This document shows positions 8,900 to 50,241 of a DNA stretch of 64,000 bases, piece after piece. The translations under genes were made by a program, and so were the position numbers. The stretch lies in the NCBI GenBank assembly GCA_015233115.1, contig JADFYJ010000002.1, forward strand, positions 111,216 through 175,215. Reading direction: 5' to 3'. The notes below the pieces were generated by a model, which searched no databases, was not told the DNA's origin, and was given only the letters and a program-made list of their open reading frames with translations. Positions within the stretch are counted from its first letter, which is position 1; every line of letters starts with the position of its first letter. The DNA is from Candidatus Omnitrophota bacterium (GTDB taxonomy: Bacteria > Omnitrophota > Gorgyraeia > Zapsychrales > Zapsychraceae).

Positions 8900-9046
8900 T
8901 TATTGTTAGAGTTGACCTAAATTAAATTCCTCGTGTAGTAAAACATGGGGCACAAAGTTGTATCCCAAGTTATAATCATGAGACAACAAATATATCATCT
9001 TGTTTCAAAATGTCAATATGTTTTTTATGTGTGTCCGGTGTCCAAC

Positions 9047-9099
9047 GGCGTCTGATCTCGACTAAGCTTTGGCGCCAGACAATTAATGGTCTAGACACC
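9047..9099. repeat. family D element (partial): GGCGTCTGATCTCGAC ... GGTCTAGACACC
   Basis: Shares GGYGTCAGATCTCGAC / GTCGAGATCTGACACC arms with 20068-20160 and 54784-54876; stop codon of the 1580-aa gene (CTA 9091-9093) lies in the arm. Confidence 0.55.
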
Positions 9100-12000
9100 A
9101 TTTTCTAATTCCAATAAAAGATTATTAACTGGTGTTACGTTAATTATAACAGGTGTAAGCCCGTTAATACCATCTTTCATAAACATCTGTATTTGAGATG
9201 TATCATATTTTATTTCCGTTATATTGCCGGCACGACGGACATTCAGCTCATTCATATCAATACCTCCGACAGAAGAAGTTACCATCGCCTCATCAGAAAA
9301 AAATTCCGCCTCAATATCTTGATCTATTTTATCTTCTATAGTCAGTTGCATATCCGAAATAGCTTCAATTAACTCCGTGATTCTTTTTACCATATAATAT
9401 TTCACATTGGAAAAATTACCATCCTTGAGTTCCTCGCTATATATTTTTTCCAGTTCCATAAAAATATTTTTAAATGGCAATTGCCTAAATAAACTATTTT
9501 CCCCTCCCATTGTTAAAGCATAACCCAAGTATGTCCTTTGTCTGGCAACATCATCCACAGAAGGAACCGTGTAAACTTCAGTTTTATACTCATTACCCAA
9601 CGCAAGAGCCAAGCTGGCAACTTTAAATGAACTACCTAAATCTCCGCTTATTAACAAAGGGACTTGATATTTTCTTGTAATCTGAACGAGGATCCAAAAA
9701 ACCTCCACAACCTCCGGCCGGATCTGACTATAATACTCTCCATATTTAGGATCTGAACGATCAATATGAAACATGGATTTGATCAGATCAGAACTTCCAA
9801 TATCAATAAAATTTGATCTTTGCACAATATGTTCAAATTGAGATAAGGCGGTTATATCTTCAAAATAATAACCAATTTGAATTTGTTTTAACAATGCATT
9901 CAACCGGTTCTCTTCATTATCAATTTCACGCAAATTCAAAGCTCTTTTCTGAATCTGATGCTCTTTCACATACGCAGACATCTGTTCTTCAATTACGGCT
10001 GTTTGCGATTGTTTTAACATTTCATCGATCTTGTCCAAAGAAACCTTTTCATCGTTTCTTACATTAGGAAATGAAATTCCAAGCTTACCATTATTGACTT
10101 TCAAATACGCGCGGTTCAAACAGCGCAGCTGGCGAAGCCCAAATTCGTAAAATGGCATGTTGCCTTTTTTATCTTTATAAAAATAAAAAGCTATACCAGG
10201 ATAATTATTCAAAATATCCTGCAAAACAGCATCCGCATCATCGCCGCGTGTTCCTATATAATCACTTAAAATTTTTGGTATTTTATCTTTTTGAACATCA
10301 TACAATCGAGGTGTCCACAAGAATGAAACACCTTTTAAATCATTCTGAAACATATTGGCGCTCAAAATCTCCGTAAATATCGCTGTCATTATTTTTTCAT
10401 TTTCTTCTATATCTGGATATCGTTCAATATATTCTTTAAATATGACTTCAATTCGGCTTAATCCGACCCCTGTCCCGCCTTCCCGCAATGCTTTACCTTC
10501 AAGAATTTCACTCTTAGTTTCATGAACATCGACAGGAGAAGTAAATAAATAATGTCCATCCACATTCAAAGGGTTCTTGGTTTTAATCTGATTAAACTTT
10601 CTTTTTATCCCATGCCTGTGCATTTCTTGCAAGCCTTCATACATCTCTTGCCAATTAGGTTTTATAACAATTCTTGGCTGTCCAGTGCCGCGCCATTTAC
10701 CATACAAAATTACTTTATCGCCTTTTTTAATGTTATAAGTTTTTCCGCCATAATTTTCTACTCCAGTTATTGCTACCCCTCCTTGCGTTTTTATATCTTT
10801 AGGTGCATGCGCGGATGGTGTCCCCCGGTTCCAAATCAACCCGACAATGTTGGGATATTTTTCTTTAAGCTGAGCCAAGCCATTATACGTCACTTCCTTG
10901 ACAGATGGGTCAACCACAATCACAACAGGCTTATCCGTAATTTTTTTACTTGATGCGCTAGATTCTTTATATGTAAAAATACTTAATTCAAAAATTAAAT
11001 CATCAAAATTTTTATGAGACTCTCCTTTAAAAATATTAATTCGTTCAACGTCTTCTAAACTAAAATTTTCTTCCAAAGGCATGTTAGCATTAATCGCAGC
11101 TAAAAATGAAGCAATAGCCTCTTCAATAGTCAAAGCTTGTTTTGAAATTTTTTCTTTTATAAAACGCGCGAATAAATCTCTAAGATATATAAAATCTTCA
11201 TTTTCATCTGCAAATTTTTTTAAAAACCCTAATTTCTCCGCATCAGGCGTCTTAAAATATTCGATAAACTTTGAGCCAATACTTTCTCCATTTTTTTTCT
11301 GGCTTCTCAGCCGATTCAATAAAAATTTATTCCAAGCGTTGTGCAATGCTTCTTCAAAACGATTTTTTTGCGCCTCAATCAAAACCTCCGCGCGTTCCGA
11401 TGTTGTTCCGGGAGAAAAAACATAATGTTGACTGTGAATCCGGTTCTCAATAAATGGCAAACTCGCCATCTGTTCCTCAAGGTTATCAATAGACGACCTT
11501 AGAAAAGGTTTATTAATAGCCTTGAGCTGACTTAAATTGGTTTGAATATGCCGACGATACCGTTTCAAAAATTCATGCGCTGAAAAAGGCGCCATAGCAG
11601 GTCGCACTCCCGTTGGTTTTTCTCCCTCCATCTCTTTTAACAGTTTGACCACAACATGATCGTACATAAACCAAGTTCTTTGCAACAACGCACCTTTTTG
11701 TTCTTCATCAATTGATTTATCTAGCATTATTAAATCTTCGTTGGACAAACGAAACCGGACCACATTTTCCGCGGTGGGATTTAAATCCAAATTTTGTTTC
11801 GCTTTTAAATAATCAGAGATCAATTTCGAATAACGATCCATTTTCGTTCCATAAGCATTGTTTAATACCCGCGCTGCAGCAGCCCGCAGATATTGAAATC
11901 TTTCTTCTTTTGCTTCTTTAATACCAATATCCCTATGAGCTAATAAATCTTCCACTAAGCGGCTATAGAAAATCTTTAAAATCCGAAAAGTGACTTTTTT

Positions 12001-13833
12001 TCTCTCTTCATTTTCAAACTGCAAACTTTCCCCTTTTTCGTTTAATCTTTTTTGAAAAAATTTTTCTAATTCAGTAAAATTTTTATTGCGAAGTGATATA
12101 ACCGCGCGATAGGCAAAAGACGGATTTTCTTCTAAACGTTGGAGCACATATTGCTTTGATTCTTCAAGCATGAGTTGCAACGTGTCTGAATGAACCGGCC
12201 TTCGCTTTAACAATAATTGAAAAATTTTTTCAAAATACTGTTGTTTCTCAACTATCTTCATTTTAATTTCAGATTCCGTGTCAAATGGCTGATAAATCGG
12301 ATAGCGTAAGCCATCTTCCATTCCCTCGCCTGAATACCAAACGGCCTCACCAATGGCGACTCCTTCATTTCTTCCTGACGTTCCAGTTTGAATTTCAATT
12401 TGATTAATCCCAGGCCTTCGGTTCTCGACAAACGGAAAACCCTCCTCATTAACAAGAAAATTACGAACATGTTCTTCGGTGATTTGTTCAGCAAATTTTG
12501 ATAATACCCCCATTTTTAATAATCGCGCCTTAAATCTAACAACCAGTTCAGAAACAACCGCGTTTAAATCGGTCAAAATTGTTTGCGGGATTTCTCCTTT
12601 ATTCCTTTCAAGGATCAACTCATAAAATATCGGATAAAAAGCTTCTTGAACTTCGGGATATTCAAAAACTTTAGGTATGCCTGATACCATGGCACGATCT
12701 GGTAATCCCGCCGAATTTAACACATTAGCTTCAATTCTCAGTAATCTGCCTTGCGGGGCAATCTGTGCCGAACTGTGTTTAATGTTCATGGCAAAATCCA
12801 TGGTTTTATCAATACCTCCGGAAAAATACTTGCGCGGGATCAATTGCTGTGAAACAGGGTCATATTCTTCTTTAATAAATCCAAAACTCCCTTTTTGGTA
12901 TTTTTCCAAATATAAATTGTAAATCGTTTGAGTCTCCGCGCGGTCTACTGGATCAATACCTTTGGTTTTATTCTTATCAAAATATAATCTTGCCAAAACC
13001 CCATCCACAATTCTCTGTTTATACCATTTGGCTAAAATCAAAGAATAAAAAATTTGCCTGATTTGGATAAAATTATTGCCTTCATTGACCTCTTTTTCAA
13101 TAGCCGGAAGTATAATTTGTTTCATCAATTGTGACATGACCGGAGACGTTATATTTGCATTTTTAATATCTTTAATCTTATTCCCCTCATAATCCTGATC
13201 CATCAGGACTTTCAAATGACTATCAATGACGTATGCATTTAATCCATTTTCATAAACTGTAGCCTTTTCTGGAACAATCCAAACTTTATTAAGAATGCCT
13301 TGAGGAATTTCAAAAGAGTTGTTCTTCCCGCGAAAGCGAGGGTCACGCGATTGAATTTTATAAATCCTCTCCCAAAAATCAGCCCCTAAACGAGTGTTTG
13401 GATTCATCAACGCAGAAGTCATTTGTTTCAACACATAATCTTGATTCAACATATCTCGTCCTAATTCGGTCTGGGAGAGTGAATCAGGAATAATCCGTTT
13501 TTTTTCGTAGGGGGATAGATTCACCCAAATATCTCCTTTGGGGATGGTAAGTGCGGCAAGAAAATAACTAATTAGCCGTTGAGATTCATTTTTCGCTTTT
13601 TCCTGAGAAAAACCACTTTGACCTAAATCGACTATAAAATCAAAACGGAAAGGATTTTCCGGATGAAGGCTTAGCCCTTTCATTAACAGCGGCTCGATTG
13701 GAGAATTTAAAATCAAATTTTCTGAAACTGAAGGCAATATTTGGGCATAAGAAAACGGTGATATAAAACCGCTAACAAAACATATAAGTATTAATATATT
13801 TATAAATCGTTTTAACATAACCAATGCTCCCAA
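9091..13833 (-). CDS. giant (1580 aa) signal-anchored protein with PEP-utilizing-enzyme-like mobile and TIM-barrel domains; possibly catalytically altered
   Basis: N-terminal hydrophobic signal/anchor; middle region resembles PEP-utilizer mobile domain (NRGTPSAHAP...GGVAITGVEN...IKKGDKV); C-terminus resembles PEP-utilizer C-terminal domain (FIDIGSSDLIKSMFHIDRSD ~ FSIGTNDLTQYTLAVDRGN; ISGDLGSS at position of CGELAGD). Confidence 0.5.
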   Translation of the reverse strand: MGALVMLKRFINILILICFVSGFISPFSYAQILPSVSENLILNSPIEPLLMKGLSLHPENPFRFDFIVDLGQSGFSQEKAKNESQRLISYFLAALTIPKGDIWVNLSPYEKKRIIPDSLSQTELGRDMLNQDYVLKQMTSALMNPNTRLGADFWERIYKIQSRDPRFRGKNNSFEIPQGILNKVWIVPEKATVYENGLNAYVIDSHLKVLMDQDYEGNKIKDIKNANITSPVMSQLMKQIILPAIEKEVNEGNNFIQIRQIFYSLILAKWYKQRIVDGVLARLYFDKNKTKGIDPVDRAETQTIYNLYLEKYQKGSFGFIKEEYDPVSQQLIPRKYFSGGIDKTMDFAMNIKHSSAQIAPQGRLLRIEANVLNSAGLPDRAMVSGIPKVFEYPEVQEAFYPIFYELILERNKGEIPQTILTDLNAVVSELVVRFKARLLKMGVLSKFAEQITEEHVRNFLVNEEGFPFVENRRPGINQIEIQTGTSGRNEGVAIGEAVWYSGEGMEDGLRYPIYQPFDTESEIKMKIVEKQQYFEKIFQLLLKRRPVHSDTLQLMLEESKQYVLQRLEENPSFAYRAVISLRNKNFTELEKFFQKRLNEKGESLQFENEERKKVTFRILKIFYSRLVEDLLAHRDIGIKEAKEERFQYLRAAAARVLNNAYGTKMDRYSKLISDYLKAKQNLDLNPTAENVVRFRLSNEDLIMLDKSIDEEQKGALLQRTWFMYDHVVVKLLKEMEGEKPTGVRPAMAPFSAHEFLKRYRRHIQTNLSQLKAINKPFLRSSIDNLEEQMASLPFIENRIHSQHYVFSPGTTSERAEVLIEAQKNRFEEALHNAWNKFLLNRLRSQKKNGESIGSKFIEYFKTPDAEKLGFLKKFADENEDFIYLRDLFARFIKEKISKQALTIEEAIASFLAAINANMPLEENFSLEDVERINIFKGESHKNFDDLIFELSIFTYKESSASSKKITDKPVVIVVDPSVKEVTYNGLAQLKEKYPNIVGLIWNRGTPSAHAPKDIKTQGGVAITGVENYGGKTYNIKKGDKVILYGKWRGTGQPRIVIKPNWQEMYEGLQEMHRHGIKRKFNQIKTKNPLNVDGHYLFTSPVDVHETKSEILEGKALREGGTGVGLSRIEVIFKEYIERYPDIEENEKIMTAIFTEILSANMFQNDLKGVSFLWTPRLYDVQKDKIPKILSDYIGTRGDDADAVLQDILNNYPGIAFYFYKDKKGNMPFYEFGLRQLRCLNRAYLKVNNGKLGISFPNVRNDEKVSLDKIDEMLKQSQTAVIEEQMSAYVKEHQIQKRALNLREIDNEENRLNALLKQIQIGYYFEDITALSQFEHIVQRSNFIDIGSSDLIKSMFHIDRSDPKYGEYYSQIRPEVVEVFWILVQITRKYQVPLLISGDLGSSFKVASLALALGNEYKTEVYTVPSVDDVARQRTYLGYALTMGGENSLFRQLPFKNIFMELEKIYSEELKDGNFSNVKYYMVKRITELIEAISDMQLTIEDKIDQDIEAEFFSDEAMVTSSVGGIDMNELNVRRAGNITEIKYDTSQIQMFMKDGINGLTPVIINVTPVNNLLLELENGV

Positions 13834-20067: not shown

Positions 20068-20160
20068 GGTGTCAGATCTCGACCTGAAACAGTTCGTTCG
20101 AAATTAGAAATTGTCGCCGGTTAGTTGCTTTGCGCCAAAGCTCAGCCGAGATCAGACACC
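20068..20160. repeat. family D element: GGTGTCAGATCTCGAC - 61 nt - GCCGAGATCAGACACC (BglII-site-containing inverted repeat)
   Basis: Near-perfect 16-nt inverted arms; same family at 54784-54876 and partial at 9047-9099. Confidence 0.7.
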
Positions 20161-20172
20161 GTTTTTTTACTA

Positions 20173-21206: not shown

Positions 21207-24200
21207 CTATGTCTGATTCCTAAAATTTTTGACATAATCCAAAAAATCAGCCGGGGAAACGGGTTTGCTGAAATAAAAGCCTTGCACAAAATCACAGCCG
21301 TATTCTTGGAGCATGCCGGCTTGTTCTTTGGTTTCTACGCCTTCTGATGTTACTTTAAGGTTTAAGCTTTTGCTCAGGGAGATAATCCCTTTGATCAATG
21401 CGTTCGTATTCGTATTCCCGGGCATTTCCTTGATAAAACTGCGGTCAATTTTTACCATATCGACCGGAAATTTTTGCAGATAATTTAATGAGGAATAACC
21501 TGTCCCAAAATCATCAATGGCAAAATGTACGCCCATGCCAGATATTTTTTGAATGCACTCCATAATATGCTCGCCGCAATCCATTAATAGATGTTCTGTA
21601 ATCTCCAGCTCTAATTTATCAGGCGAAAGCTGCGCGCGCTCTAACGCGCTTTTGACTGCCAAAGATAAATCACCATGCCGAAATTGACGAACAGAAATAT
21701 TAACCGCTACTTTTAATGATAAACCTAACTGGTCATTCCAATATTTAGCCTGACTGCACGCTTCCCGTAAAACCCATTCACCGATCGGTACAATTAACCC
21801 GTTTTCTTCACATAAAGCAATAAATTTATCCGGCATGACCAATCCTAACACGCGATTTTGCCATCGTATTAATGCTTCAAATCCAATAATTTTTCCCGTC
21901 TGTAAACTCAGTAAAGGCTGATAATGAAGAAAAAATTCTTTATTTTCCAGCGCGTGTCTTAGATGCGATTCTAATTCCATACGTTCAGACATTTTTTCAT
22001 TCATAGCTGGCGTAAAATAATAGCTCGTATTGCGTGAATTTTCTTTCGCTTTAAACATGGCGGCTTCAGCATTTTTAAATAAAATTTGCGCGTCCCTGCC
22101 ATCGGAAGGCGCAATAGTAATACCAATGCTGGCGGAAGTAAACAGCTCCTTCCCCTCAATAACAAAAGCCATAGACAACATCACCAAAATTTTTTTTGCA
22201 ACCACATCAGAATGCGTGGTAGACTCCAAATCCGATAAGATAATAAGGAATTCATCTCCAGCCATTCTAGCGACAGTATCGCTTTCCCGTACCGTCTCTT
22301 TTAGACGCTGTGAAACATGTTGTAATAAATGATCCCCATAGGTATGTCCCAGCGTATCATTAATTTCCTTAAACCGATCCAAACCAACCAACAGTACTGC
22401 CACACTTTTGTTCTCCCTCTGGGCCCGTGCAACTGCCTGGGTCAAACGATCAAGGGCTAAGACCCGATTAGGCAAATTTGTCAATCCATCATAATTCGCC
22501 TGATATTCCAATCGATTTTCATACTCTTTCCTCAACGTTATATCTTCTTCAATAGCGACAAAATGAGTGATTAAATCTTTGGCATTTTTGATGGGTGATA
22601 TGGAAACATACGCCCAATATACTTCTCCATTTTTACGCCGATTACACAACTCCCCGCTCCAATTATGGCCCAAAAGAATGGTATTCCAGAGATCTTGATA
22701 GTCGGTCTGGGACGTGTAACCTGATTGTAAAAAACGCGGAGATTTACCAATAACTTCATTGGACGTATAACCAGTTATGTCAGTAAATTGGCGATTCACA
22801 TATTCAATATGGCCGCTCAGATCCGTGATAATCACTGTGGCGGGATTTTGTTCCACAACCTGGTTGAGTTTAATGCTTAAATCTTTAACCTTTTGCTGTT
22901 CGGTAATATCAATGCCTACGCCAATTATAAAATCGACATCCCCTTCCCCATTTAAAATTGTTGAACCTCTCCACTCTACTAGAATTTCCTGGCCCCCTTT
23001 TGTCAAAACATGACTCATGCCAGAAAGCTGCCTTTTGGTTGAAATCAAATCACCAAACCGCGCGCGCAATAAATCGCGTTCATGTTCAGGAACCAGGTCA
23101 TTCACATAATGAAGGCTTGAAGCTTCCTCCTTTTTATATCCTAACGCGGATAACATGGCATTGTTCATCAACAAGACTTTATGATTCAAATCAACAGCCA
23201 CAAAAAAGACCGGAGAATTATCAAGAATAGAACTGGTAAAATTCTGTTCTTTGAGTAAGGCTTCTTCCGCTTTTTTTCTTTTGGTGATATCCATGCCGAT
23301 TGATAAAACACCGGTCAATTTATTATCCGAGTCATAAATCGGTTTATTCGTCCAGTTGACCCAAACTCTTTCCCCATTCTTCCGCACATTTTCGTTTTCA
23401 TGATTCACGAATTTTTCTGGCGCAGACAGCAATTCATCCACAAAATCTTTTAAATTCCTGCCGATTGAATCGTGTACTGGAATAATTTTATTAACAGGAT
23501 TCTCTCCTATCAATTCTTCCGAACTATAACCAAAAAATTTCAAAGCAAATTCATTGGCAAAAGTAATCCGGCCATGAACATCCGTTTTAAGAATAATGCT
23601 GTTGGCGTTTTCTACCAATTCCCGGTATTTTTTTTCACTCTCTAATAAAGAAAATTCGACTCGCTTAGTTTCAGTCTTATCATCATATACAGCAACAATC
23701 TCTCCAGTTGACAATTTAAAAGCATAGTTCTCAACCCACAAGGATATACGGTTATCTTTATATTCTGTTGTACCTAAATGCTCAGTATTGCCGCTCATAT
23801 TCACTTGCTGCAATAAGTTAATAAGACCCATATGTTTCGCAGAAGGAAACACTTCGGAAAGTTTTTTACCAATGACATCTTCACGAATCATGGAAGGAAT
23901 CGCACAGCCCGCATTATTAATATCCACAAAAATAAAATCATGACCATCTTCAGTCGGACGATAAACAGCCACACCTTCTTTCATCGTGTTAAATAAGTTG
24001 CGGAATCGCTGTTCAGTAAAACTTAATTCCTGTTCCCACTTTTTTCGCGCGTTGATATCGGAAACAACCGCGAATCCGCCTTTCCAATTCCCTTTTTCAT
24101 CAAAAATAAGTTGAGGCGAAATCAACCCAAAAAATATTGATCTATCTTTACGGTATAATTCAAGCTCATACGACGTACTCGCCTGATGACGGATCACACT

Positions 24201-25127
24201 CAAATGTTTCATGAACAACTCAAATCCCTGAGGCGTCAAAAAATCAAAAATCGGTTTACCCATAATCTCATCCGTTGTGAATCCCAGAAAATCACAAAAT
24301 TTAGGATTAACATACTGGATTCGGCGGTTAGCATCAATCACACAAATCCCATCATTCATATTCTCAACCAATGAACGGTAACGTTGTTCATTAGCCGTTA
24401 ATTTTTCTTCAAATTCAATCCTTTTTAATTCTTGAGAAGTAAACTGCCAAATCAAATATAATGACAGTAAAGCAATAATCCCCAATATACGCATAAAGAT
24501 CCAGGTCAAATCTTTCAAATAAATATTAGTCTCTGTATTAATGTCATTGGCATAAAACCCTACCCCGATTATCCATCCCCAAGGTTCAAATTTTTTAATA
24601 TACGCGATCTTGGGTATAACTTTATTAGGATGATCCTGCCATTGCCAAAGATATTTCACATAACCTTCGCCATGTTTATTCGCCACATCCACTATTTCCT
24701 TAATAAAATACTTCCCCGCTGGGTCAGTATAATTAAGAAGATTCGACCCTTCCAAATCAGGACGATAAGGATGTAAAAGGACAACGCCTTTATCATTCAC
24801 AATCCAAAAATAATCTTTATGCCCCTCTCCGTACCTGATCAATTTAATCTGCCGCAATGCTTTTTTTTGGGCATCTTCAAGCGAAATCTGCCCGTGAGCG
24901 ACTTGATCCTGAAATTCCCGTAACAAATCTGTAGAAATATAGGATACTTCTTTAATAAGCAATTTTTTTGATTCCAATATGCTGGCTTTAAAAGCTGGCA
25001 GGCTCAGATAAAAAACCGCAAAAAATGAGAGAAAAAATGTTAAGAAAACGGGAAGGATGTTACGAACAAGTATCTGCAACGAAATTTTTCTAAAATGATT
25101 ATTTTTTCGCATAATATATGATACCAT
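21207..25127 (-). CDS. membrane sensor: periplasmic Cache domain - multiple PAS - GGDEF (AGDEF variant) - EAL; c-di-GMP turnover protein
   Basis: 1306 aa; two TM segments bracketing a Cache-like region; at least four PAS/PAC repeats; RMAGDEFLIIL (GGDEF motif with A for first G); EAL domain with FEALIRW, ELEITE, DDFGTGYSS motifs. Confidence 0.85.
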   Translation of the reverse strand: MVSYIMRKNNHFRKISLQILVRNILPVFLTFFLSFFAVFYLSLPAFKASILESKKLLIKEVSYISTDLLREFQDQVAHGQISLEDAQKKALRQIKLIRYGEGHKDYFWIVNDKGVVLLHPYRPDLEGSNLLNYTDPAGKYFIKEIVDVANKHGEGYVKYLWQWQDHPNKVIPKIAYIKKFEPWGWIIGVGFYANDINTETNIYLKDLTWIFMRILGIIALLSLYLIWQFTSQELKRIEFEEKLTANEQRYRSLVENMNDGICVIDANRRIQYVNPKFCDFLGFTTDEIMGKPIFDFLTPQGFELFMKHLSVIRHQASTSYELELYRKDRSIFFGLISPQLIFDEKGNWKGGFAVVSDINARKKWEQELSFTEQRFRNLFNTMKEGVAVYRPTEDGHDFIFVDINNAGCAIPSMIREDVIGKKLSEVFPSAKHMGLINLLQQVNMSGNTEHLGTTEYKDNRISLWVENYAFKLSTGEIVAVYDDKTETKRVEFSLLESEKKYRELVENANSIILKTDVHGRITFANEFALKFFGYSSEELIGENPVNKIIPVHDSIGRNLKDFVDELLSAPEKFVNHENENVRKNGERVWVNWTNKPIYDSDNKLTGVLSIGMDITKRKKAEEALLKEQNFTSSILDNSPVFFVAVDLNHKVLLMNNAMLSALGYKKEEASSLHYVNDLVPEHERDLLRARFGDLISTKRQLSGMSHVLTKGGQEILVEWRGSTILNGEGDVDFIIGVGIDITEQQKVKDLSIKLNQVVEQNPATVIITDLSGHIEYVNRQFTDITGYTSNEVIGKSPRFLQSGYTSQTDYQDLWNTILLGHNWSGELCNRRKNGEVYWAYVSISPIKNAKDLITHFVAIEEDITLRKEYENRLEYQANYDGLTNLPNRVLALDRLTQAVARAQRENKSVAVLLVGLDRFKEINDTLGHTYGDHLLQHVSQRLKETVRESDTVARMAGDEFLIILSDLESTTHSDVVAKKILVMLSMAFVIEGKELFTSASIGITIAPSDGRDAQILFKNAEAAMFKAKENSRNTSYYFTPAMNEKMSERMELESHLRHALENKEFFLHYQPLLSLQTGKIIGFEALIRWQNRVLGLVMPDKFIALCEENGLIVPIGEWVLREACSQAKYWNDQLGLSLKVAVNISVRQFRHGDLSLAVKSALERAQLSPDKLELEITEHLLMDCGEHIMECIQKISGMGVHFAIDDFGTGYSSLNYLQKFPVDMVKIDRSFIKEMPGNTNTNALIKGIISLSKSLNLKVTSEGVETKEQAGMLQEYGCDFVQGFYFSKPVSPADFLDYVKNFRNQT

Positions 25128-33359: not shown

Positions 33360-33576
33360 AGATAACCTATATTGTTTCTCATTTTACTTCACTATTTCCT
33401 AAATTCAAGGGGAATATCAAAAACAGGGCCAAGTAAACGGTTACTGGGAAAATTGTTTAAACCTGCGGCATAAAACAAATGATTTATCGACGATAACACT
33501 CTTGAAAACTAGGTTGGCATTTCACTATTTCATCATGCTATACTCTAAGTGGGTCAAATGTTCTTTATAGATGTTA

Positions 33577-33706
33577 AAGGTAAACTACTCGAAAGAGTGG
33601 GGCCCGTGAACCATGTAAGGTTCACGGTCCTGAACCCAACGTGGTTCAGGAACAAAGCCGTGAAGCTAAAGTAATTTATTACTAAGCTTGTCTGGTTGCC
33701 GATAGG
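33577..33706 (+). ncRNA. candidate c-di-GMP-II-like riboswitch aptamer (with two inserted hairpins)
   Basis: GGTAAAC-CUACUC-GAAA-GAGUGG-G hairpin (GAAA tetraloop, 6-bp stem) then GAACAAAGCCG, a hairpin GAAGCU..AAGCUU, and 3-prime GGUUGCCGAUAGG; this parallels the recalled c-di-GMP-II aptamer GGGCAAAC-CAUUC-GAAA-GAGUGG-GACGCAAAGCC...GGGGUUACCGAUGG. Confidence 0.4.
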
Positions 33707-34087: not shown

Positions 34088-37051
34088 TTATTTTCCTTTT
34101 AACGGCACATAAAATACATACGTTGAACCTTCTTCGATTGTTAATGACTTCTGAAGTTTGATCTTCGGCAAATAATCCAGCGGAATTGAATTTATATCAA
34201 CGCTCAAGCGGTGATTACCCGGCAATACATTTTGGAATGTGTAGGTTCCTTCCATATCCGAATAAACTGTCGTTTTACCGTCTAAGAATATCTTCACTTG
34301 ACCAATAGTTTTTTCACCTGTATCAGGTTTGCCGTTATTATTCTCATCCACAAATACCATCCCGTAAATGCTCGTGTTGGTAGAGGTGCCAAAACTCAGT
34401 AATTGGGTTTTATATGCGGCCAAATTAACGGTCTTTGTATTAGGAGTTGATAACACATACCCCGGTGGCAAAGAACCGACATCAATCGAAACAGTCACGA
34501 GTTTCGCTCTGATCTTTCCAAAATAATGTCCATTCTTATCAGTCTTGACTTGTTTGCGGCCGATCTTAATTTTGACATTGGGCAAACCAGGTTCATTATA
34601 TTCGCGGCTGCCATTTGAATTAAGGTCTTTAAACACATACCCTTCAATCCGCCCCACCGCTGTCCACGCGAATGGAGTTTCCAGAGAAGTTTTCACGCCG
34701 CCCCGCACATCCAATTCAGTATACATATGGCCGCCCGGAATCGAAGGCCACACTTTGCGTGTGCGGCCATCTAAATAAAGTTGAAAATCTTCCGATACTG
34801 AATAAGTTGAAGTAATTCCACCGTTAAAACTATCTTCCCCGGCTAAAAAACTGTTGATAGCTGCCGCGTTTTGCTCTCTCCGATAAGACACATCTAAAGC
34901 ATTGTTTAAGTGATCGCCGATCTGATTATTGTAAGATAACCCCGTCGTTAAAACGCCGGGCATAACAAATTTGCCTGTAGAAAAATTATAAATCCAGGAA
35001 TACTGATATGTGGTGTAAGAGGTTAAATCTTTTATCAACGGGACACTCATTCCCGCCGTTGTTGAATAACGGTCATAATCGGATTCATCAGAAAAACTAT
35101 ACCGGCTTTTTTGATACATTCCCTGAATATACGCGTTCATTTTTTGATTCCCCCAAATCGGAAGATATTTCGAATACGTTGAGGAATATTGAAAATTCGT
35201 GCGAGGGGAAAGCTGTTGCGGCGTAGTCGTAAAATAAATAGCCTGATTGATTGTACCATCGGTCGTAAACGGTACCACCAGCGTGGAATTAAAATCATAA
35301 TTCAGTCCATTAGGATTTTCTTCATTCGGTAAAAGCCGATCCTGAAAAGTGTCTAACGAAGCTGTCCAATTCGCATCTGTATAAGGAGTCCAATCCAATG
35401 TTAATAGCCCGCCTACCTCCCCCTGGCCTGACGGCGCACCAGTAATCGTTTTGAAATCCGGTTGAATATTCCGGTAACTGACCCCTGTTTTTAAACCATC
35501 CACTTCATAAACACTTTTTACAGTGTGGGCCGTACGGCTTTGGTCATACGCCACTTCTGCTTCATTTAAAACATTTTTAAACGTCCTAGCCTGCCCTTGC
35601 AATGAAAAAACTTTTTCTTTTAGGTTTTCATCCCGGTCCAGTCCATAGCCACGGGCATAATTAAAGGCAAGCTTGTTATCCCGTTCTGGAAATAACTCCA
35701 CTCTAGTCCCTTCAATAAACGCATCGCGTGGGTGTGTTGAGGCCTGGCCAGAGGATAACAAACCATAACTGTTTTGTTCCCGTCCCCAAAAACTGGTTAA
35801 TCCAATAGTTTTATGCAGAATTTCTCCCTTACCGGTCAACCCACGATAATTCTCTCCGGTCACAGTCAGTGGAGAGAAGGTGGTCATAGCATCGTAGCCC
35901 CGCAACTCGAGCTTTTCAAACGGATAAATTCGGGCATCAGTCAACCCGACGGTATAATACGTCGGCGGGGTCTTATCCGCGAATTTTTCCATGGTCAAAC
36001 TGCTGTCAAATTTTCCCACCGGTACTTCCCCGACCACATTAACATTATAAATTATACCTAAATTGAGTTTACGTAAATTTGAATACGACGGACCGCTATA
36101 AATAGAACTCCAATCCACAGAACTGCCTACCCGGAACGGTTTAGCAATTTGAAAAATTTGTTCCCGCTGTAACGCCATACTATTCCGGTCAAGGGGCACG
36201 ATCACGTTCACATCGAAACTCCACCGCCCTTTATTATCCCAAACATACACGATGGTCGTCCCCAAACTCACAGCCTTAACTAAAATCTGATCCCGGTCAA
36301 TCCGTTCAATTTCTAAAGAACCAGGTGAGACGACTAAAAATTTATCTATATTTTTTCCTTCTATTAAAATTGCGGTTCGAAAACTCAGGCGTAATGGCGC
36401 GTTCGGCTGATGTTTCCAAGCTTCATCGTTGAGTTTTAAAGTTGAAGAAGGTTTGACCTTCGGAGCTGGAAGTTCTTTAGCTTGTCGACCTTCGTTTAAT
36501 CCAACAGATTGAGATGGCACATCCAAAATAGGCTGAGTATTGGTTGTTTGAGCCGGAAAATTTTCTAAAGAAACAGCCGTTTGCTCTCCCTCGGCTTCAT
36601 TCAATGACTGGTTAATTAAATCCAGCCGGTTAAATGGTTTCGTCTTTTGTTCAACCGTTTGCAAGGCCTGTTGCACTTTTTGTTCGCGGGATATTTTATT
36701 TTTGATCGGAGCATGCGGAACGATCAGATAATCTAACGAAGGCGGAGCATCAGATGACTCTGCTTTATCAGACGAAATAACGACCACTTTATGATCCTGC
36801 AAACGTTTGATGAGATTGATATATTCTTTTGGTTCTGTCGTTGATGGCTCGACTAATTGTGCCTCAGAAAAATAGCGGATCGCGGAATTGTAATCTTTGC
36901 GGCCAAAAGCACTTTTACCTTTTTGAAGGCAATAAGAATACGCCATGGAATATTCGGTTGAATATCCATTATCAACAAAAGAAAAAATTAATAATATTAA
37001 GATTAAATAGAAACGGAATTTTCCCAGCATGCTGGAATTGTAACATCCCAA
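34088..37051 (-). CDS. 987-aa outer-membrane-type protein: signal peptide, secretin-N-like (pilus formation N-terminal) domain, large beta-rich region, two C-terminal CnaB/SdrD-B-type domains; candidate assembly platform/usher analogue
   Basis: Signal peptide; segment LVVSPGSLEIERIDRDQILVKAVSLGTTIVYVWDNKGRWSFDVNV matches T2SS/T3SS pilus-formation N domain pattern; Y/G/S/T/N-rich amphipathic stretch 290-790; GYVFKDLNSNGSREYNEPGLPNVKIKI and GMVFVDENNNGKPDTGEKTIGQVKIFLDGKTTVYSDMEGTYTF are CnaB/SdrD-B-like. Confidence 0.5.
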   Translation of the reverse strand: MGCYNSSMLGKFRFYLILILLIFSFVDNGYSTEYSMAYSYCLQKGKSAFGRKDYNSAIRYFSEAQLVEPSTTEPKEYINLIKRLQDHKVVVISSDKAESSDAPPSLDYLIVPHAPIKNKISREQKVQQALQTVEQKTKPFNRLDLINQSLNEAEGEQTAVSLENFPAQTTNTQPILDVPSQSVGLNEGRQAKELPAPKVKPSSTLKLNDEAWKHQPNAPLRLSFRTAILIEGKNIDKFLVVSPGSLEIERIDRDQILVKAVSLGTTIVYVWDNKGRWSFDVNVIVPLDRNSMALQREQIFQIAKPFRVGSSVDWSSIYSGPSYSNLRKLNLGIIYNVNVVGEVPVGKFDSSLTMEKFADKTPPTYYTVGLTDARIYPFEKLELRGYDAMTTFSPLTVTGENYRGLTGKGEILHKTIGLTSFWGREQNSYGLLSSGQASTHPRDAFIEGTRVELFPERDNKLAFNYARGYGLDRDENLKEKVFSLQGQARTFKNVLNEAEVAYDQSRTAHTVKSVYEVDGLKTGVSYRNIQPDFKTITGAPSGQGEVGGLLTLDWTPYTDANWTASLDTFQDRLLPNEENPNGLNYDFNSTLVVPFTTDGTINQAIYFTTTPQQLSPRTNFQYSSTYSKYLPIWGNQKMNAYIQGMYQKSRYSFSDESDYDRYSTTAGMSVPLIKDLTSYTTYQYSWIYNFSTGKFVMPGVLTTGLSYNNQIGDHLNNALDVSYRREQNAAAINSFLAGEDSFNGGITSTYSVSEDFQLYLDGRTRKVWPSIPGGHMYTELDVRGGVKTSLETPFAWTAVGRIEGYVFKDLNSNGSREYNEPGLPNVKIKIGRKQVKTDKNGHYFGKIRAKLVTVSIDVGSLPPGYVLSTPNTKTVNLAAYKTQLLSFGTSTNTSIYGMVFVDENNNGKPDTGEKTIGQVKIFLDGKTTVYSDMEGTYTFQNVLPGNHRLSVDINSIPLDYLPKIKLQKSLTIEEGSTYVFYVPLKGK

Positions 37052-48135: not shown

Positions 48136-50241
48136 TTACCATTTGATGTCAACATCCAGCCACATAACATGTGCGCTGTAATTTCCGGTTTCAACTGATT
48201 GATAGGTCCGAAACGCGTAATAAGCATATTTCGGTTCAATAATTATATTTTTCGTCACGGTCCATTTCGCTCCAACCTGGGCATCGTACCATTCATCGTC
48301 TGGAGAATAAAGAAACGCCGAATTATTCGTCACATAATTATTGTTTCCGTTTTCCGCGCGAGAATACTCTGAAGTCTGAAATATGCTAAAATTATCCGTT
48401 GGCGCATAACTGGTGCTAAAAGCCAAAGTATTAACATTGGCCGTAGTTACAGGCAGATAAACTGTTGAGTTAGAAGCAAATTGACTGGCCGGCGTTGAGG
48501 TCTTAAACAACTGTAATGAATAGGATGCGGTAAACATCCACGCATCCGTCGGAAAAATCGTCAATCCATAAGTAAAATCCCTCTCCATCTGCTGAGTCTT
48601 AACCATATTTTGGGCCGCATATTGTGTATTAAATACTGTGCCTGCCGTGCGGACCCGAAAAGAATTCTCGAACCATTTGAGCGGCTTCCAAGTCAAGCGC
48701 GCCGCCATCGAATCTTCAATGTTGCGAAGCACATTTAAATCTGCTTCGGTTGAAGGATTTTCTACTACTGTATCCAATTTATCATTTTTGACACCATGTT
48801 TGTATTCTAGATTGGCACTGACGGATTTAATAGGCGTAATGCGCGCCCCAATTGTTCCTGCCATTTCAGGAGCATGATTAATAACATCATGATAAACATC
48901 ACCGCCAACGACATTAGTATTCAAGGTATCCTCTCCTTTATAAATGCGGCGGTACAATGATTCCCAATTACGATTCTGCTCCATATCAAAATCAGCATAT
49001 AAACTCGTACGTGAAAAACCAGTATATTTTAAAGAAAAATTTTCAGCCCCGCCAGTGATCTTGTTCTCACTGGTCCCGTCGTAGTAATAATTAGCAGCCC
49101 CATTGGGAGAAACACCCGCGGCTCCGAGAGAACTACAATTTGAATTAGCCGGCCCGCAGTCAATACCCTGTGTCGATATACCGTTGGTATTAACCATTTC
49201 CATTTTAATTTTACTGCCAAAACTTAAATTCCGCGTAAGATTAGTCACCAAATTCCCGGTCCAAATATTAGAATCCTGAATATTCCTACCCCAGCCATTT
49301 TTATTAGCAGGCCGCGAATAATTCCAAAGAGTTCCATTTACCATATACTCTCTAAGATACTCGATCTGACTATCTCTTAAATGAGCAAAACGATACCCCA
49401 AAGACAAATATGTCTGGTCATTAAGCATCCAACGGTCAGCCAGCCAAGTTGAAGTTAAAGATTTCGTCTGAGTATCAAGAGACTGAGCACGCCATTTATT
49501 GTCCGTCGAAGGGGTGATCATGTCCGTGTAATAGGACTGTTCCTGACGAGAACGGTTCGACTGAAAAAATCCATAAGACTGCTTCGCTTTAACCGTAAAA
49601 CCCATGACCTCCGCTTTATTTTTTAGACTAACGGTATCCGTAGTTTCTTCATTATTCCCCCAAGACGGTCCTGTATACTTTGTCACATTGGCTTTAACCG
49701 CAGTCCAGGTCAAATGATCTTCTGATCCTTTTTTAATATCTCTATCATATTCCGCTGAACACGTCGATTCACCAGGGATACCATTTCCGATTTCTAACGC
49801 AAAATAACCAACATCAAGATGCAAGTCTTGGTTAAGCTGAATCAATTGCAAGCTGGGAGTGGTATACGGATAATACCCTCCGGAATTATCAAAATATTGG
49901 CGGAAAGATTTATATTTTGTTTGAATAAAACCGATATGATCTTTGGTGATGAGCACAGAACCGTCATTATCGTTTACATTGGGAACTGAACGGCCTTCAA
50001 TAAAAATATGGGTATCTTTGCTGACCTTGGTGCCTATGTTTAAAGCATTGATTCCGTAAGAATAGCCGTCATTCAACCAATTAATGGCGCGGAATTTGGA
50101 TACGTCTCCCTTGACCTCCACAATTTGCAATGGCATTAAATCCATTGAAACAGAATTTTGCGCCCATGCACACACCGTCCATCCTATCGAGATGAAGCCA
50201 AGAATGACACCCCATATTCTTTTAATAATCGGCATTTGCAT
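48136..50241 (-). CDS. large outer-membrane beta-barrel protein, MtrB/PioB-like by size and context
   Basis: 701 aa, signal peptide [32 protein letters not shown]-rich alternating pattern, C-terminal ...DVDIKW aromatic terminus; 13 nt downstream of multiheme cytochrome gene. Confidence 0.45.

What the first reader, a model, noticed from the sequence alone, without database searches (positions are those of the whole stretch)
9091..13833. 1580-aa signal-anchored protein with PEP-utilizing-enzyme-like domains carrying substitutions at catalytic positions
The C-terminal third aligns to the PEP-utilizer mobile domain and to the PEP/pyruvate TIM-barrel domain (FIDIGSSDLIKSMFHIDRSD vs FSIGTNDLTQYTLAVDRGN).

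The protein begins with a hydrophobic signal or anchor and carries ~900 aa of unassigned N-terminal sequence.

Where the phospho-His motif GG-T-S-H is expected, the sequence reads GTPSAH. Where the catalytic Cys motif CGE-AGD is expected, it reads ISGDLGSS (Ser for Cys).

An exported or membrane-anchored, possibly non-catalytic, PEP-synthase/PPDK-like giant protein is unusual. The gene sits between ribosomal protein genes and truA-asd and ends inside a repeat arm.
Basis: partly seen in the sequence, partly recalled or inferred. Interest (0 to 1): 0.55.

Follow-up and report, generated by a model that had tools for sequence, protein, structure and literature searches.

The report
Exported capped carrier with Enzyme-I-like cargo
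The gene encodes a signal-peptide-bearing protein of a candidate-phylum Omnitrophota bacterium, in which a divergent copy of the sugar-transport enzyme "Enzyme I" sits between an N-terminal and a C-terminal domain that thousands of other Omnitrophota proteins share around quite different enzymes; this looks like an undescribed phylum-wide way of handling enzymes outside the cytoplasm.

Summary
The ORF is real. It most likely starts at ATG 13818 (1575 aa) and is identical to hypothetical protein HQL26_01800 of a Candidatus Omnitrophica MAG. The PEP-utilizer homology is confirmed, but the nearest relative is PTS Enzyme I (PtsI), not PEP synthase or PPDK. The EI-like part has:
- a "GVAIGEA" strand;
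- a helical insert of about 450 aa where the HPr-binding subdomain would be;
- a swivel domain with the phospho-His kept (H1004);
- a PEP-binding TIM barrel that keeps the Arg, Glu and Asp ligands, with Cys502→Ser in the whole ortholog clade and Asn454→Ser only here.

The larger result concerns the "unassigned" termini. Residues 1-335 (cleavable-looking signal peptide plus a roughly 310-aa domain) are 42-50% identical to the N-termini of more than 3,000 protein clusters. The last ~60 residues match most of them too. These proteins come almost only from Omnitrophota, and their middles hold unrelated cytoplasm-type domains (NDK, NUDIX, methyltransferases, radical SAM, receivers, HEAT/ANK/TPR). 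A D-x-A-M linker motif marks the module borders.

Neither cap has a Pfam, NCBIfam or PDB relative. I read the protein as a single-cargo member of an exported "capped cargo" family. Where it ends up and what the caps do are inferred, not shown.

The parts
13744..13818 (-). Signal peptide, aa 1-25 (MLKRFINILILICFVSGFISPFSYA|Q): basic n-region, 13-residue hydrophobic core, S-x-A|Q cleavage-type site
   Evidence: Read from the sequence. By a simple heuristic, 102 of 118 N-terminally complete family members have the same layout, and 76 have [SGAVT]-x-A|Q. No SignalP run was available.
12814..13743 (-). 'N-cap', aa 26-335: conserved family domain with motifs WVNLSPYE (aa 98-105), TELGxDxLxQDYxLKQ, NKVWIxPE, EKEVNxGxNF..LRQI..SLILAKWYK, ending PRKYFSGG (aa 328-335)
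   Evidence: 42-50% identical to the N-termini of 114 of the 120 listed hits. 47 columns are invariant across 45 sequences. AF2 mean pLDDT is 72 with blocks at 85-95. No PDB fold match (best E 0.8). No Pfam or NCBIfam hit. No PDB sequence match.
12679..12813 (-). Linker and small hairpin module, aa 336-380, carrying two D-x-A-M motifs (DFAM 341-344, DRAM 374-377)
   Evidence: D-x-A-M occurs 254 times in 120 family proteins against 18.6 expected. It clusters just after YFSGG, just before GGIDxN, and at internal module borders.
12409..12678 (-). Helical lead-in of the cargo, aa 381-470
   Evidence: Conserved only in the full-length orthologs P0002-P0006. AF2 predicts helices with pLDDT of about 60-89.
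10969..12408 (-). Enzyme-I-like N-terminal region, aa 471-950: the 'NEGVAIGEAV' strand (aa 484-493) followed by a helical insert of about 450 aa in the position of the HPr-binding alpha subdomain
   Evidence: The strand motif is conserved in orthologs ('EGVGVGRATFF'). AF2 predicts an all-helical region of low to moderate confidence. Full-length Enzyme I structures align over 650-700 columns. No Pfam PEP-utilisers_N hit.
10609..10968 (-). Swivel (phospho-histidine) domain, aa 951-1070, with R-G-T-P-S-A-H-A at aa 998-1005 (candidate phospho-His = His1004; window 10807-10809)
   Evidence: The ortholog profile aligns to the Enzyme I swivel domain, with the His on or within one residue of His189. 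The His is conserved in most relatives. The AF2 model is poor here (pLDDT below 50).
9499..10608 (-). Linker helix plus PEP-binding TIM barrel, aa 1071-1440. Kept: R1122 (=R296), R1171/D1174/K1179 (=R332/D335/K340), E1320 (=E431), D1344 (=D455), R1354 (=R465). Replaced: S1343 for N454 and S1391 for C502
   Evidence: Pfam PF02896 E 3e-14 on aa 1297-1409. PDB alignments. Motif table across relatives. AF2 pLDDT 75-93 over the barrel. Foldseek hits to Enzyme I C-domains and PEP synthase C-domain with TM 0.57-0.65.
9304..9498 (-). Helical spacer, aa 1441-1505
   Evidence: Conserved only among orthologs. AF2 predicts a long helix.
9094..9303 (-). 'C-cap', aa 1506-1575: DEAM (1509-1512), GGIDMN (1518-1523), ...GLTPVIINVTPV (PVIINVTP = aa 1556-1563)...LLLELENGV. 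It lacks the acidic '...LGLEPxxxEEExE[LV]SxLN' tail of many members
   Evidence: BLASTP matches to the C-termini of 89 of 119 family proteins. GG-I-D, G, P-I-I and P are nearly invariant. Tail comparison. No Pfam or NCBIfam model. AF2 confidence is low.
9044..9075 (.). 32-nt repeated element downstream of the stop codon, with an inverted copy at 20132-20163.
   Evidence: blastn 29/32 identical, E 2e-5. Alignment. No Rfam family.

Best explanation
The gene encodes a single-cargo member of a very large family of modular proteins found almost only in Omnitrophota.

**Architecture (shown):** a Sec-type signal peptide, a conserved N-terminal domain of about 310 aa ('N-cap'), D-x-A-M linkers, a variable middle ('cargo'), another D-x-A-M, and a conserved C-terminal domain of about 60-80 aa that begins GGIDxN ('C-cap').

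**Cargo (shown):** here it is a divergent PTS Enzyme-I-like phosphotransfer unit. It has a swivel domain with the phospho-accepting His and a PEP-binding TIM barrel with the Mg/PEP ligands. A helical insert of about 450 aa replaces the HPr-binding subdomain, and Ser replaces the general-acid Cys.

**Likely mechanism (inferred):**
1. The protein is exported by Sec and the signal peptide is cut after SYA.
2. The two caps, shared by all family members whatever the cargo, give a common post-export treatment. This could be sorting to or anchoring in the envelope, hand-over to an outer-membrane secretion route, or release of the cargo by cleavage at the linker motifs.
3. The Enzyme-I-like cargo then takes phosphate from PEP (or a close analogue) onto His1004 and passes it to a partner other than HPr.

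PEP, ATP, SAM and Fe-S assembly are not available in a periplasm or outside a cell. The family's cargo set therefore makes most sense if the proteins end up working in, or on, another cell. That would fit the host-dependent or predatory lifestyle proposed for Omnitrophota.
For: **Family frame**
- 3,264 protein clusters match at E<=1e-3, and only 8,000 candidates were scored.
- Apart from five full-length orthologs at about 30% identity, the hits match only aa 1-~340/380 (41-50% identity). In 89 of 119 they also match aa ~1505-1570.
- Their precomputed Pfam content is unrelated: NDK, Maf, NUDIX, adenylate and guanylate kinases, methyltransferases, radical SAM, GGDEF, receiver, protein kinase, PFK, GDH, PGM, LpxC, HEAT/ANK/TPR.

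**Taxonomy**
- Several loci come from the same genome.
- 55 of the 79 best loci are labelled Omnitrophota or Omnitrophica.

**Export signal**
- Basic n-region, hydrophobic core and [SGAV]-x-A|Q are conserved across the family.
- 103 of 120 members have no further TM-like segment, and neither does this protein.

**Linker motif**
- D-x-A-M occurs 254 times against 18.6 expected, at module borders.

**Novelty of the caps**
- No Pfam, NCBIfam, PHROG or PADLOC model.
- No PDB sequence or fold relative.

**Cargo**
- Pfam PF02896 at E 3e-14.
- The ortholog profile hits the Enzyme I swivel and barrel.
- An exhaustive HMMER search gives a handful of orthologs, then the same module inside 2-4.7-kaa signal-peptide proteins, then about 575-aa PtsI-length proteins. 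Every one of the large relatives that carries a name is from Omnitrophota.
- Catalytic residue table.
- Foldseek best hits are full-length Enzyme I at E 2e-9 to 1e-7.

**Independent assemblies** show the same architecture (P0002-P0006, P0121/P0268).

**Literature**
- Omnitrophota giant proteins with signal peptides and 'multi-enzyme metabolic' content are described, without mention of these caps (Nielsen & Lui 2026, doi 10.64898/2026.06.07.730766).
- A predatory or host-dependent lifestyle is proposed in PMC10066038 and doi 10.1101/2023.11.21.568195.
Against: - No experiment or dedicated predictor (SignalP, DeepTMHMM) was available. Export rests on sequence rules.
- The final location, any cleavage at D-x-A-M and any delivery to another cell are all inference.
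- No secretion or protease gene is consistently next to family genes. In this window the gene sits inside a housekeeping gene string.
- The cargo domains are classic cytoplasmic enzymes, which could equally argue that the proteins stay inside.
- Ser for Cys502 (and Ser for Asn454 in this copy) may abolish or change catalysis.
- The AF2 model of the swivel domain and the C-cap is poor.
- 24 of the 79 best genome loci carry other labels: 21 'uncultured Planctomycetales', one Lysobacterales, one Ca. Elulimicrobium and one unnamed 'bacterium'. I could not re-classify them.
Confidence: 0.5

Rival explanations
1. Membrane-tethered cytoplasmic enzyme. The N-terminal hydrophobic segment is an uncleaved anchor, and the N-cap, cargo and C-cap stay on the cytoplasmic face. 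The family would be a way for ultra-small cells to organise cytoplasmic enzymes, here a PEP-dependent phosphotransferase, at the membrane.
For: - The cargo families need cytoplasmic substrates and cofactors such as PEP, NTPs, SAM and Fe-S clusters.
- The gene is embedded between truA and rplM in a same-strand housekeeping string.
- The EI-like unit keeps nearly all its catalytic residues.
- Nielsen & Lui consider a cytoplasmic-face reading for TM-only giants.
Against: - The positive-inside rule points the other way: the basic residues precede the hydrophobic core and the following ~40 residues are neutral or acidic.
- A small-x-Ala|Gln site is conserved across the family.
- A bulk-in topology would need a second membrane crossing, and 103 of 120 members have none.
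Confidence: 0.2
2. Non-catalytic envelope or surface component. The Enzyme-I-like unit is a pseudoenzyme kept as a ligand-binding or structural module. It might bind pyruvate- or PEP-like or other anionic ligands, or serve as a scaffold, on an exported protein. This is.
For: - Cys502→Ser in the whole ortholog clade, and Asn454→Ser in this protein.
- Relatives carry Glu at the Cys position.
- The bit scores against the NCBIfam PtsI models are far below their cut-offs.
- The HPr-binding subdomain has been replaced.
- No PEP would be available after export.
- Other cargos also look divergent; for example the NDK cargos lack the Kpn-loop motif although they keep the His.
Against: Across about 30%-identical orthologs and more distant relatives, exactly the catalytic His, the three PEP-phosphate-binding basic residues and both Mg ligands remain invariant. 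That pattern is what purifying selection on chemistry would give, not selection on fold alone.
Confidence: 0.2
3. Simply a long cytoplasmic PEP synthase or PPDK-type enzyme, or an assembly or annotation chimera.
For: Weak NCBIfam hits to PEP synthase and PPDK models.
Against: - No ATP-grasp domain.
- Enzyme I is the better match by sequence and by fold.
- The signal peptide and caps are present.
- The same architecture occurs in at least six independent assemblies.
Confidence: 0.03

Closest known systems
PTS Enzyme I (PtsI; PEP-utilisers_N + PEP-utilizers + PEP-utilizers_C)
   Same: - The order of elements matches: N-terminal strand, helical insertion, swivel domain with G-x4-His, linker helix, PEP-binding TIM barrel.
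- The equivalents of His189, Arg296, Arg332, Lys340, Glu431, Asp455 and Arg465 are conserved.
- It is the best sequence and fold match.
   Different: - About 970 aa instead of 575.
- The HPr-binding alpha subdomain is replaced by a helical region of about 450 aa.
- There is an insert inside the barrel.
- Cys502→Ser, and Asn454→Ser in this copy.
- It sits behind a signal peptide and between two foreign domains.
- It scores 38.9 bits against a PtsI equivalog cut-off of 824.
PEP synthase / pyruvate phosphate dikinase / rifampicin phosphotransferase
   Same: A swivel His domain. For PPS and PPDK, also the same PEP/pyruvate TIM barrel (Foldseek E 1e-5 to 1e-3).
   Different: No ATP-grasp nucleotide-binding domain is detected. 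The helical insertion splits the swivel domain as in Enzyme I, not as in PPS or PPDK.
Omnitrophota giant 'multi-enzyme metabolic cluster' proteins and Archaeovorins (Nielsen & Lui 2026 preprint; West-Roberts et al. 2023 preprint)
   Same: - Same phylum.
- Signal peptide.
- Strings of cytoplasm-type enzyme domains (methyltransferase, NUDIX, PGM, receiver, radical SAM, HEAT) in one polypeptide.
- The EI-like module of this gene recurs inside 2-4.7-kaa Omnitrophota proteins.
   Different: - Those papers treat proteins of 10 kaa or more and do not describe a shared N- or C-terminal domain.
- This protein is 1.6 kaa with one cargo.
- The multi-kaa relatives of the cargo that I checked lack the N-cap motifs.
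- No conserved T2SS/Tad neighbourhood was seen.
Modular secreted effector and sorting systems with constant ends and variable middles or tips (MARTX toxins, polymorphic toxins with VENN-type junction motifs, T9SS cargo with a C-terminal domain)
   Same: The logic is the same: constant terminal modules, interchangeable functional modules, and a short conserved junction motif at module borders.
   Different: - No sequence or fold relationship to any of them.
- The cargos are metabolic or signalling enzymes rather than toxins.
- No associated transporter or protease has been identified.
- This is an analogy only.

Membership tests
PTS Enzyme I (PtsI) | PEP-binding TIM barrel (Pfam PF02896) | tested here: met
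   PF02896 at E 3e-14, 53.3 bits against a cut-off of 22.8. Only profile positions 158-271 of 293 are matched. The barrel fold is recovered by AF2 and Foldseek.
PTS Enzyme I (PtsI) | Whole-protein equivalog score (NCBIfam NF008382 / TIGR01417) | tested here: not met
   38.9 bits against a cut-off of 824, and 38.1 bits against a cut-off of 341.7.
PTS Enzyme I (PtsI) | Swivel domain with the phospho-accepting His (GGxTSH) | tested here: inconclusive
   No PF00391 hit. The ortholog profile aligns to the EI swivel domain with the His on or within one residue of His189. 'GTPSAH' keeps the G-x4-H spacing. Phosphorylation was not tested.
PTS Enzyme I (PtsI) | HPr-binding alpha subdomain (PF05524) | tested here: not met
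   No hit. A helical region of about 450 aa, unique to the ortholog clade and its Omnitrophota relatives, occupies that position.
PTS Enzyme I (PtsI) | Catalytic Cys502 and Asn454 | tested here: not met
   Ser1391 and Ser1343. The orthologs keep the Asn but all have Ser at the Cys position.
PTS Enzyme I (PtsI) | Cytoplasmic soluble protein working with HPr | tested here: not met
   Signal-peptide-like N-terminus. No ptsH or EII gene was seen among the ORFs examined in the window. The rest of the genome was not available.
PEP synthase / PPDK | N-terminal ATP-grasp nucleotide-binding domain (PPDK_N, PF01326) | tested here: not met
   No hit at E<=1. PPS and PPDK models score 13-18 bits against cut-offs of about 600-840.
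Omnitrophota 'capped cargo' family (defined here) | N-terminal signal peptide followed by the conserved ~310-aa domain (WVNLSPYE ... PRKYFSGG) | tested here: met
   41-50% identity over aa 1-~340 to 114 of the 120 listed hits; 47 invariant columns.
Omnitrophota 'capped cargo' family (defined here) | D-x-A-[MV] junction motifs after the N-cap and before the C-cap | tested here: met
   DFAM 341, DRAM 374, DEAM 1509.
Omnitrophota 'capped cargo' family (defined here) | C-terminal GGIDxN ... GFxPVIINxTP domain | tested here: met
   GGIDMN 1518 and PVIINVTP 1556. The acidic ...EEExE[LV]SxLN tail present in many members is missing.
Omnitrophota giant proteins (>=10 kaa; Archaeovorin / Dockerin-type / multi-enzyme) | Length of at least 10,000 aa with tiled or repeated Pfam domains and a T2SS/Tad-type neighbourhood | tested here: not met
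   1575 aa with one cargo. The neighbours are truA, asd, rplM and rpsI.

The most novel reading that the evidence does not exclude
The N-cap and C-cap could be the constant parts of a phylum-wide delivery chassis. Omnitrophota would export hundreds of different cytoplasm-type enzymes, each clipped between the same two domains. The caps, possibly with cleavage at the D-x-A-M junctions, would then place these enzymes on or inside host or prey cells, where PEP, NTPs and SAM exist. The Enzyme-I-like cargo of this gene would be one such effector, draining or rerouting host PEP-linked phosphate. The same modules may be the building blocks of the 'multi-enzyme' giant proteins.
Probability: 0.25. Interest if true: 0.85.

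Novelty: new variant of a known kind. Interest (0 to 1): 0.6.

Why it matters
Omnitrophota are widespread ultra-small bacteria thought to live off other cells. How they act on their hosts, and why they encode huge signal-peptide proteins full of "cytoplasmic" enzymes, are open questions.

This gene gives a small, tractable example: one cargo in 1.6 kaa. It exposes two conserved, unannotated domains and a junction motif shared by thousands of such proteins. That turns a vague phenomenon into defined sequence elements that can be searched, counted per genome, modelled, and tested by proteomics, localisation and cleavage mapping.

It also adds a new branch of the Enzyme I / PEP-utilizer superfamily. 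This branch has a different partner-binding region and Ser or Glu in place of the catalytic Cys.

Tried and rejected
1. **Two homolog searches with the cargo region alone.** One used the single sequence and one used the ortholog alignment. Both returned only the query, because the word prefilter failed. The exhaustive representative search replaced them.
2. **Paralogs in the window.** None were found by tblastn with the N-cap, C-cap or cargo.
3. **Idea that the Met or Val of D-x-A-[MV] is a relic or internal start codon.** In L001, 4 of 5 Val codons are GTG. Over 94 family ORFs it is 13 of 35 against a 25% background, which is not significant. Rejected.
4. **Idea that the small hairpin module after the N-cap is homologous to the C-cap.** hhalign probability is 14% over 17 columns. 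Rejected.
5. **Idea that giant proteins are concatenated N-cap units.** No protein carries more than one N-cap motif, and the multi-kaa relatives of the cargo lack it. Rejected for the sequences in hand.
6. **Search for a conserved neighbour gene (protease or secretion) in 80 loci.** Only further family members recur, in about 10 loci. The ortholog in L001 is directly preceded by another family gene.
7. **Quick regex test for 'dead' cargos in other members.** The patterns were too strict. The NDK cargos keep the catalytic His, so no general pseudoenzyme claim is made.
8. **Repeat arm at the gene end.** Not found inside the gene.
9. **PHROGs and PADLOC scans.** Nothing found.
10. **Literature searches for a prior description of the caps.** None was found in the held library. 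Subscription-journal papers, such as Kizina et al. 2022, could not be read.


Full report
**The object**

The ORF 9091..13833 on the minus strand is the longest in the window. The TTG at 13833 is followed five codons later by an ATG at 13818 with GGAG 9 nt upstream. The 1575-aa product from that ATG is identical, end to end, to NCBI protein HQL26_01800 of a Candidatus Omnitrophica MAG (P0001). So the window comes from an Omnitrophota genome.

The gene lies in a same-strand string: fabF-like, leuB-like, asd, truA, this gene, rplM, rpsI, argC, argJ. It is somewhat AT-richer (GC 0.36) than its flanks (0.40-0.46). rplM has its own strong sigma-70-like promoter at 9016-8989.

Pfam finds one significant domain. 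PEP-utilizers_C hits aa 1297-1409 at E 3e-14, above the gathering score, but covers only profile positions 158-271 of 293. NCBIfam gives only weak hits. The PtsI models come first (38.9 bits against a cut-off of 824), and PEP synthase and PPDK are far weaker. PDB sequences of Enzyme I C-terminal domains match at E 4e-5. They show the quoted alignments: FIDIGSSDLIKS against FFSIGTNDLTQY, and ISGDLGSS against MCGELAGD. The N-terminus MLKRFINILILICFVSGFISPFSYA|Q has the n/h/c layout of a Sec signal peptide.

The one detail I could not confirm is that the gene "ends inside a repeat arm". The only repeat is a 32-nt element at 9044-9075, which lies 16 nt past the stop. An inverted copy sits at 20132-20163.

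**The unexpected result: the termini are a family frame**

The homolog search returned 3,264 clusters at E<=1e-3, although only 8,000 candidates were scored. Only five of the listed hits are full-length relatives (P0002-P0006, about 30% identity, same length, same PF02896).

All the others match only aa 1 to ~340-380, at 41-50% identity. In 89 of 119 they also match aa ~1505-1570. Their middles carry unrelated precomputed Pfam domains: NDK, Maf, NUDIX, adenylate and guanylate kinases, dCMP deaminase, many methyltransferases, radical SAM, GGDEF, receiver domains, protein kinase, PFK, FBPase, PGM, UDPGP, aldose epimerase, GDH, LpxC, and HEAT, ankyrin and TPR repeats.

Often there are several per genome. 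Of the 79 best loci, 55 are labelled Omnitrophota or Omnitrophica, 21 "uncultured Planctomycetales" (TPA bins), and one each Lysobacterales, Ca. Elulimicrobium and "bacterium".

Only this one member lies in the window. The ortholog P0003 sits in a different neighbourhood and is directly preceded by another family gene.

**Anatomy of the frame**

*Signal peptide.* By a simple heuristic, 102 of 118 N-terminally complete members have a basic n-region, a hydrophobic core and a small-x-small site. 76 of them read [S/G/A/V/T]-x-A|Q. 103 of 120 have no other TM-like segment.

*N-cap (aa 26-335).* It has 47 invariant columns in 45 sequences, many of them polar (W98 N100 S102 P103, D127 Y128 K131 Q132, K178 W180, D209, E243 N245, R254 Q255, W265 K267, Y331 G334 G335). 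AF2 gives a mixed alpha/beta model with mean pLDDT 72, pTM 0.66 and blocks at 85-95. Foldseek finds nothing in the PDB (best E 0.8). The profile finds no PDB sequence for this part. Pfam, NCBIfam, PHROGs and PADLOC have no model for it.

*Junction motif.* D-x-A-M (D-x-A-V in a GC-richer relative) occurs 254 times in 120 proteins against 18.6 expected. It sits 5-45 residues after YFSGG, about 9 residues before GGIDxN, and at internal borders of multi-cargo members. An example is DxAMLSGKRILVVDD before each receiver domain of P0032. This protein has DFAM 341, DRAM 374 and DEAM 1509.

*C-cap.* The consensus is GGIDxNxIxVxRxGxGxxIxFDPxxxQxxxxxGxxGFxPVIINxTPxxSxLPLLGLEPxxxEEExE[LV]SxLN. The window copy stops just after "LLLELENGV" and so lacks the acidic tail. 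The AF2 model of this part is of low confidence.

**The cargo**

An alignment of the five orthologs shows conserved blocks through the whole middle. A profile of that region, searched exhaustively against 1.84 billion representatives, gave 430 hits at E<=1e-3, in three tiers:
- a handful of orthologs;
- the same roughly 1,100-aa module embedded in 2-4.7-kaa proteins that mostly begin with signal-peptide-like segments but lack the N-cap;
- many proteins of about 570-590 aa, the length of PtsI, that match both the swivel region and the barrel.

Every one of the large relatives that carries a name is from Omnitrophota.

Against PDB sequences, the profile aligns to full Enzyme I. The swivel domain matches 2wqd and 2hro at domain E 6e-6 and 4e-5. 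The conserved His falls on His189 in the E. coli alignment and one residue off in the S. carnosus alignment.

The residue table reads as follows.

| E. coli Enzyme I | This protein | Note |
|---|---|---|
| His189 | His1004 | In G-T-P-S-A-H, same G-x4-H spacing as GGRTSH |
| Arg296 | R1122 | Kept |
| Arg332 / Asp335 / Lys340 | R1171 / D1174 / K1179 | Kept |
| Glu431 | E1320 | Kept |
| Asn454 | S1343 | Asn in the orthologs |
| Asp455 | D1344 | Kept |
| Arg465 | R1354 | Kept |
| Cys502 | S1391 | Ser in the whole ortholog clade; Cys or Glu in more distant Omnitrophota relatives |

Substitutions at C502, E431 and D455 strongly impair E. coli Enzyme I (PMC13598208). That Cys502 is the proton donor to the pyruvate enolate rests on my own knowledge of the Enzyme I and PPDK literature.

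The "NEGVAIGEAV" strand (aa 484-493), followed by about 450 aa of helices before the swivel domain, reproduces the Enzyme I topology of strand, alpha-subdomain insertion and alpha/beta subdomain. The insertion, however, is unrelated and several-fold larger, and no PEP-utilisers_N hit is found.

The AF2 model of aa 381-1575 is weak overall (pLDDT 62) but good over the barrel (75-93). Its best Foldseek matches are full-length Enzyme I structures (E 2e-9 to 1e-7, 650-700 aligned columns). Next come Enzyme I and PEP synthase C-domains (TM 0.57-0.65), then PPDK. No ATP-grasp domain is present, so PEP synthase, PPDK and rifampicin phosphotransferase are not the right models.

**How it most likely works**

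*Shown:* the architecture, the family, the conservation pattern and the Enzyme-I-like nature of the cargo.

*Inferred, step 1:* Sec export and cleavage after SYA, from the sequence rules conserved across the family.

*Inferred, step 2:* the caps provide a cargo-independent service after export. They are the only parts under family-wide constraint, and the N-cap's many invariant polar residues suggest specific binding or catalysis rather than a passive spacer. The candidate roles are envelope sorting or anchoring, recognition by an outer-membrane secretion route, or cargo release by cleavage at the junction motifs (Ala at P1 would suit a Ser-Lys type peptidase). I could not separate these.

*Inferred, step 3:* the cargo is a working or nearly working phosphotransferase. 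It loads His1004 from PEP or an analogue and serves a partner bound by the novel helical region.

The family's cargos need PEP, NTPs, SAM or Fe-S assembly, and none of these is available in a periplasm. The most coherent reading is therefore action in or on another cell. This fits the host-dependent or predatory biology proposed for the phylum (PMC10066038; doi 10.1101/2023.11.21.568195) and the signal-peptide "multi-enzyme" giants described recently (doi 10.64898/2026.06.07.730766).

I give this composite 0.5. The main rivals are a membrane-tethered cytoplasmic enzyme (0.2) and a non-catalytic binding or structural module (0.2).

**Comparison with what is known, and novelty**

The cargo is a new variant of the Enzyme I / PEP-utilizer kind. 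It fails membership of PtsI proper on score, HPr-binding subdomain, Cys502 and location.

I found no description of the N-cap / junction / C-cap frame in Pfam (2025), NCBIfam (June 2026), the PDB or the papers I could search. By logic it resembles constant-ends/variable-middle secreted systems (MARTX toxins, polymorphic toxins, T9SS cargo). It shares no sequence or fold with them.

I file the whole as "new variant of a known kind". The cap system itself may deserve "new kind" status if the delivery reading holds (probability about 0.25).

**Limits**

- No dedicated signal-peptide or topology predictor was available.
- There is no genome-wide census.
- Structural models of the swivel domain and C-cap are weak.
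- Two of the three capped homolog searches were lost to the word prefilter.
- Literature coverage excludes subscription journals.

Noticed in passing
window 9044-9075 and 20132-20163: A conserved element of about 35 nt (AACGG[CT]GTCTGATCTCG[AG]CT[AG]AGCTTTGGCGC) occurs in two intergenic regions in opposite orientation, 29/32 identical. One copy lies 16 nt after the stop of the 1575-aa gene and ahead of the rplM promoter. It has no Rfam match, and its function is unknown.
   Followed up: partly
window 33569-33703 (+): A c-di-GMP-I riboswitch aptamer (RF01051, 43.7 bits, above the gathering score). The gene it would control on the plus strand was not examined. The adjacent 987-aa ORF with an SdrD_B domain is on the opposite strand.
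   Followed up: no
window 9255-9268 and 12807-12820: An identical 14-nt stretch (TATCAATACCTCCG, minus-strand CGGAGGTATTGATA) encodes the 'GGID' at the end of the N-cap and again at the start of the C-cap. The same four residues with the same codons bracket the cargo.
   Followed up: partly
L001 2806-8001 and 8001-12914: In another metagenome contig, the ortholog of this gene is directly preceded by a second, 1731-aa family member (the first gene ends at the base where the second starts). That member has an unrelated middle. There the junction motif reads D-x-A-V. About 10 of the 80 genome loci also hold two family genes side by side.
   Followed up: partly
window 9091-13833 versus flanks: The gene is AT-richer (GC about 0.36) than the flanking housekeeping genes (0.40-0.46). 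It sits between truA and rplM-rpsI, genes that are neighbours in many bacteria (from my own knowledge). This would fit an insertion into a conserved gene string. It was not tested against other Omnitrophota genomes.
   Followed up: no
proteins P0123, P0126, P0128-P0134 (representative library): The whole Enzyme-I-like module of about 1,100 aa, including its large helical region, recurs inside 2-4.7-kaa proteins that mostly begin with signal-peptide-like segments but lack the N-cap. The named ones are from Omnitrophota, and one cluster includes histidine-kinase annotations. At the Cys502 position these carry Cys or Glu.
   Followed up: partly
window 48136-50241 (-), 34088-37051 (-), 21207-25127 (-): A 701-aa ORF has no Pfam hit. 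A 987-aa ORF has only an SdrD B-like domain. A 1306-aa ORF encodes a Cache-PAS(x4)-GGDEF-EAL signalling protein. Further along are an MCP, ccsA/resB-type cytochrome c assembly genes and a RecN/SMC-like ATPase.
   Followed up: no
L044 (DYOU01000009.1) and L022 (JBLINE010000094.1): N-cap genes occur on contigs labelled Candidatus Elulimicrobium (Patescibacteria group in NCBI taxonomy) and Lysobacterales. One protein is labelled Bathyarchaeia. These are either mis-binned Omnitrophota contigs or rare occurrences outside the phylum.
   Followed up: no
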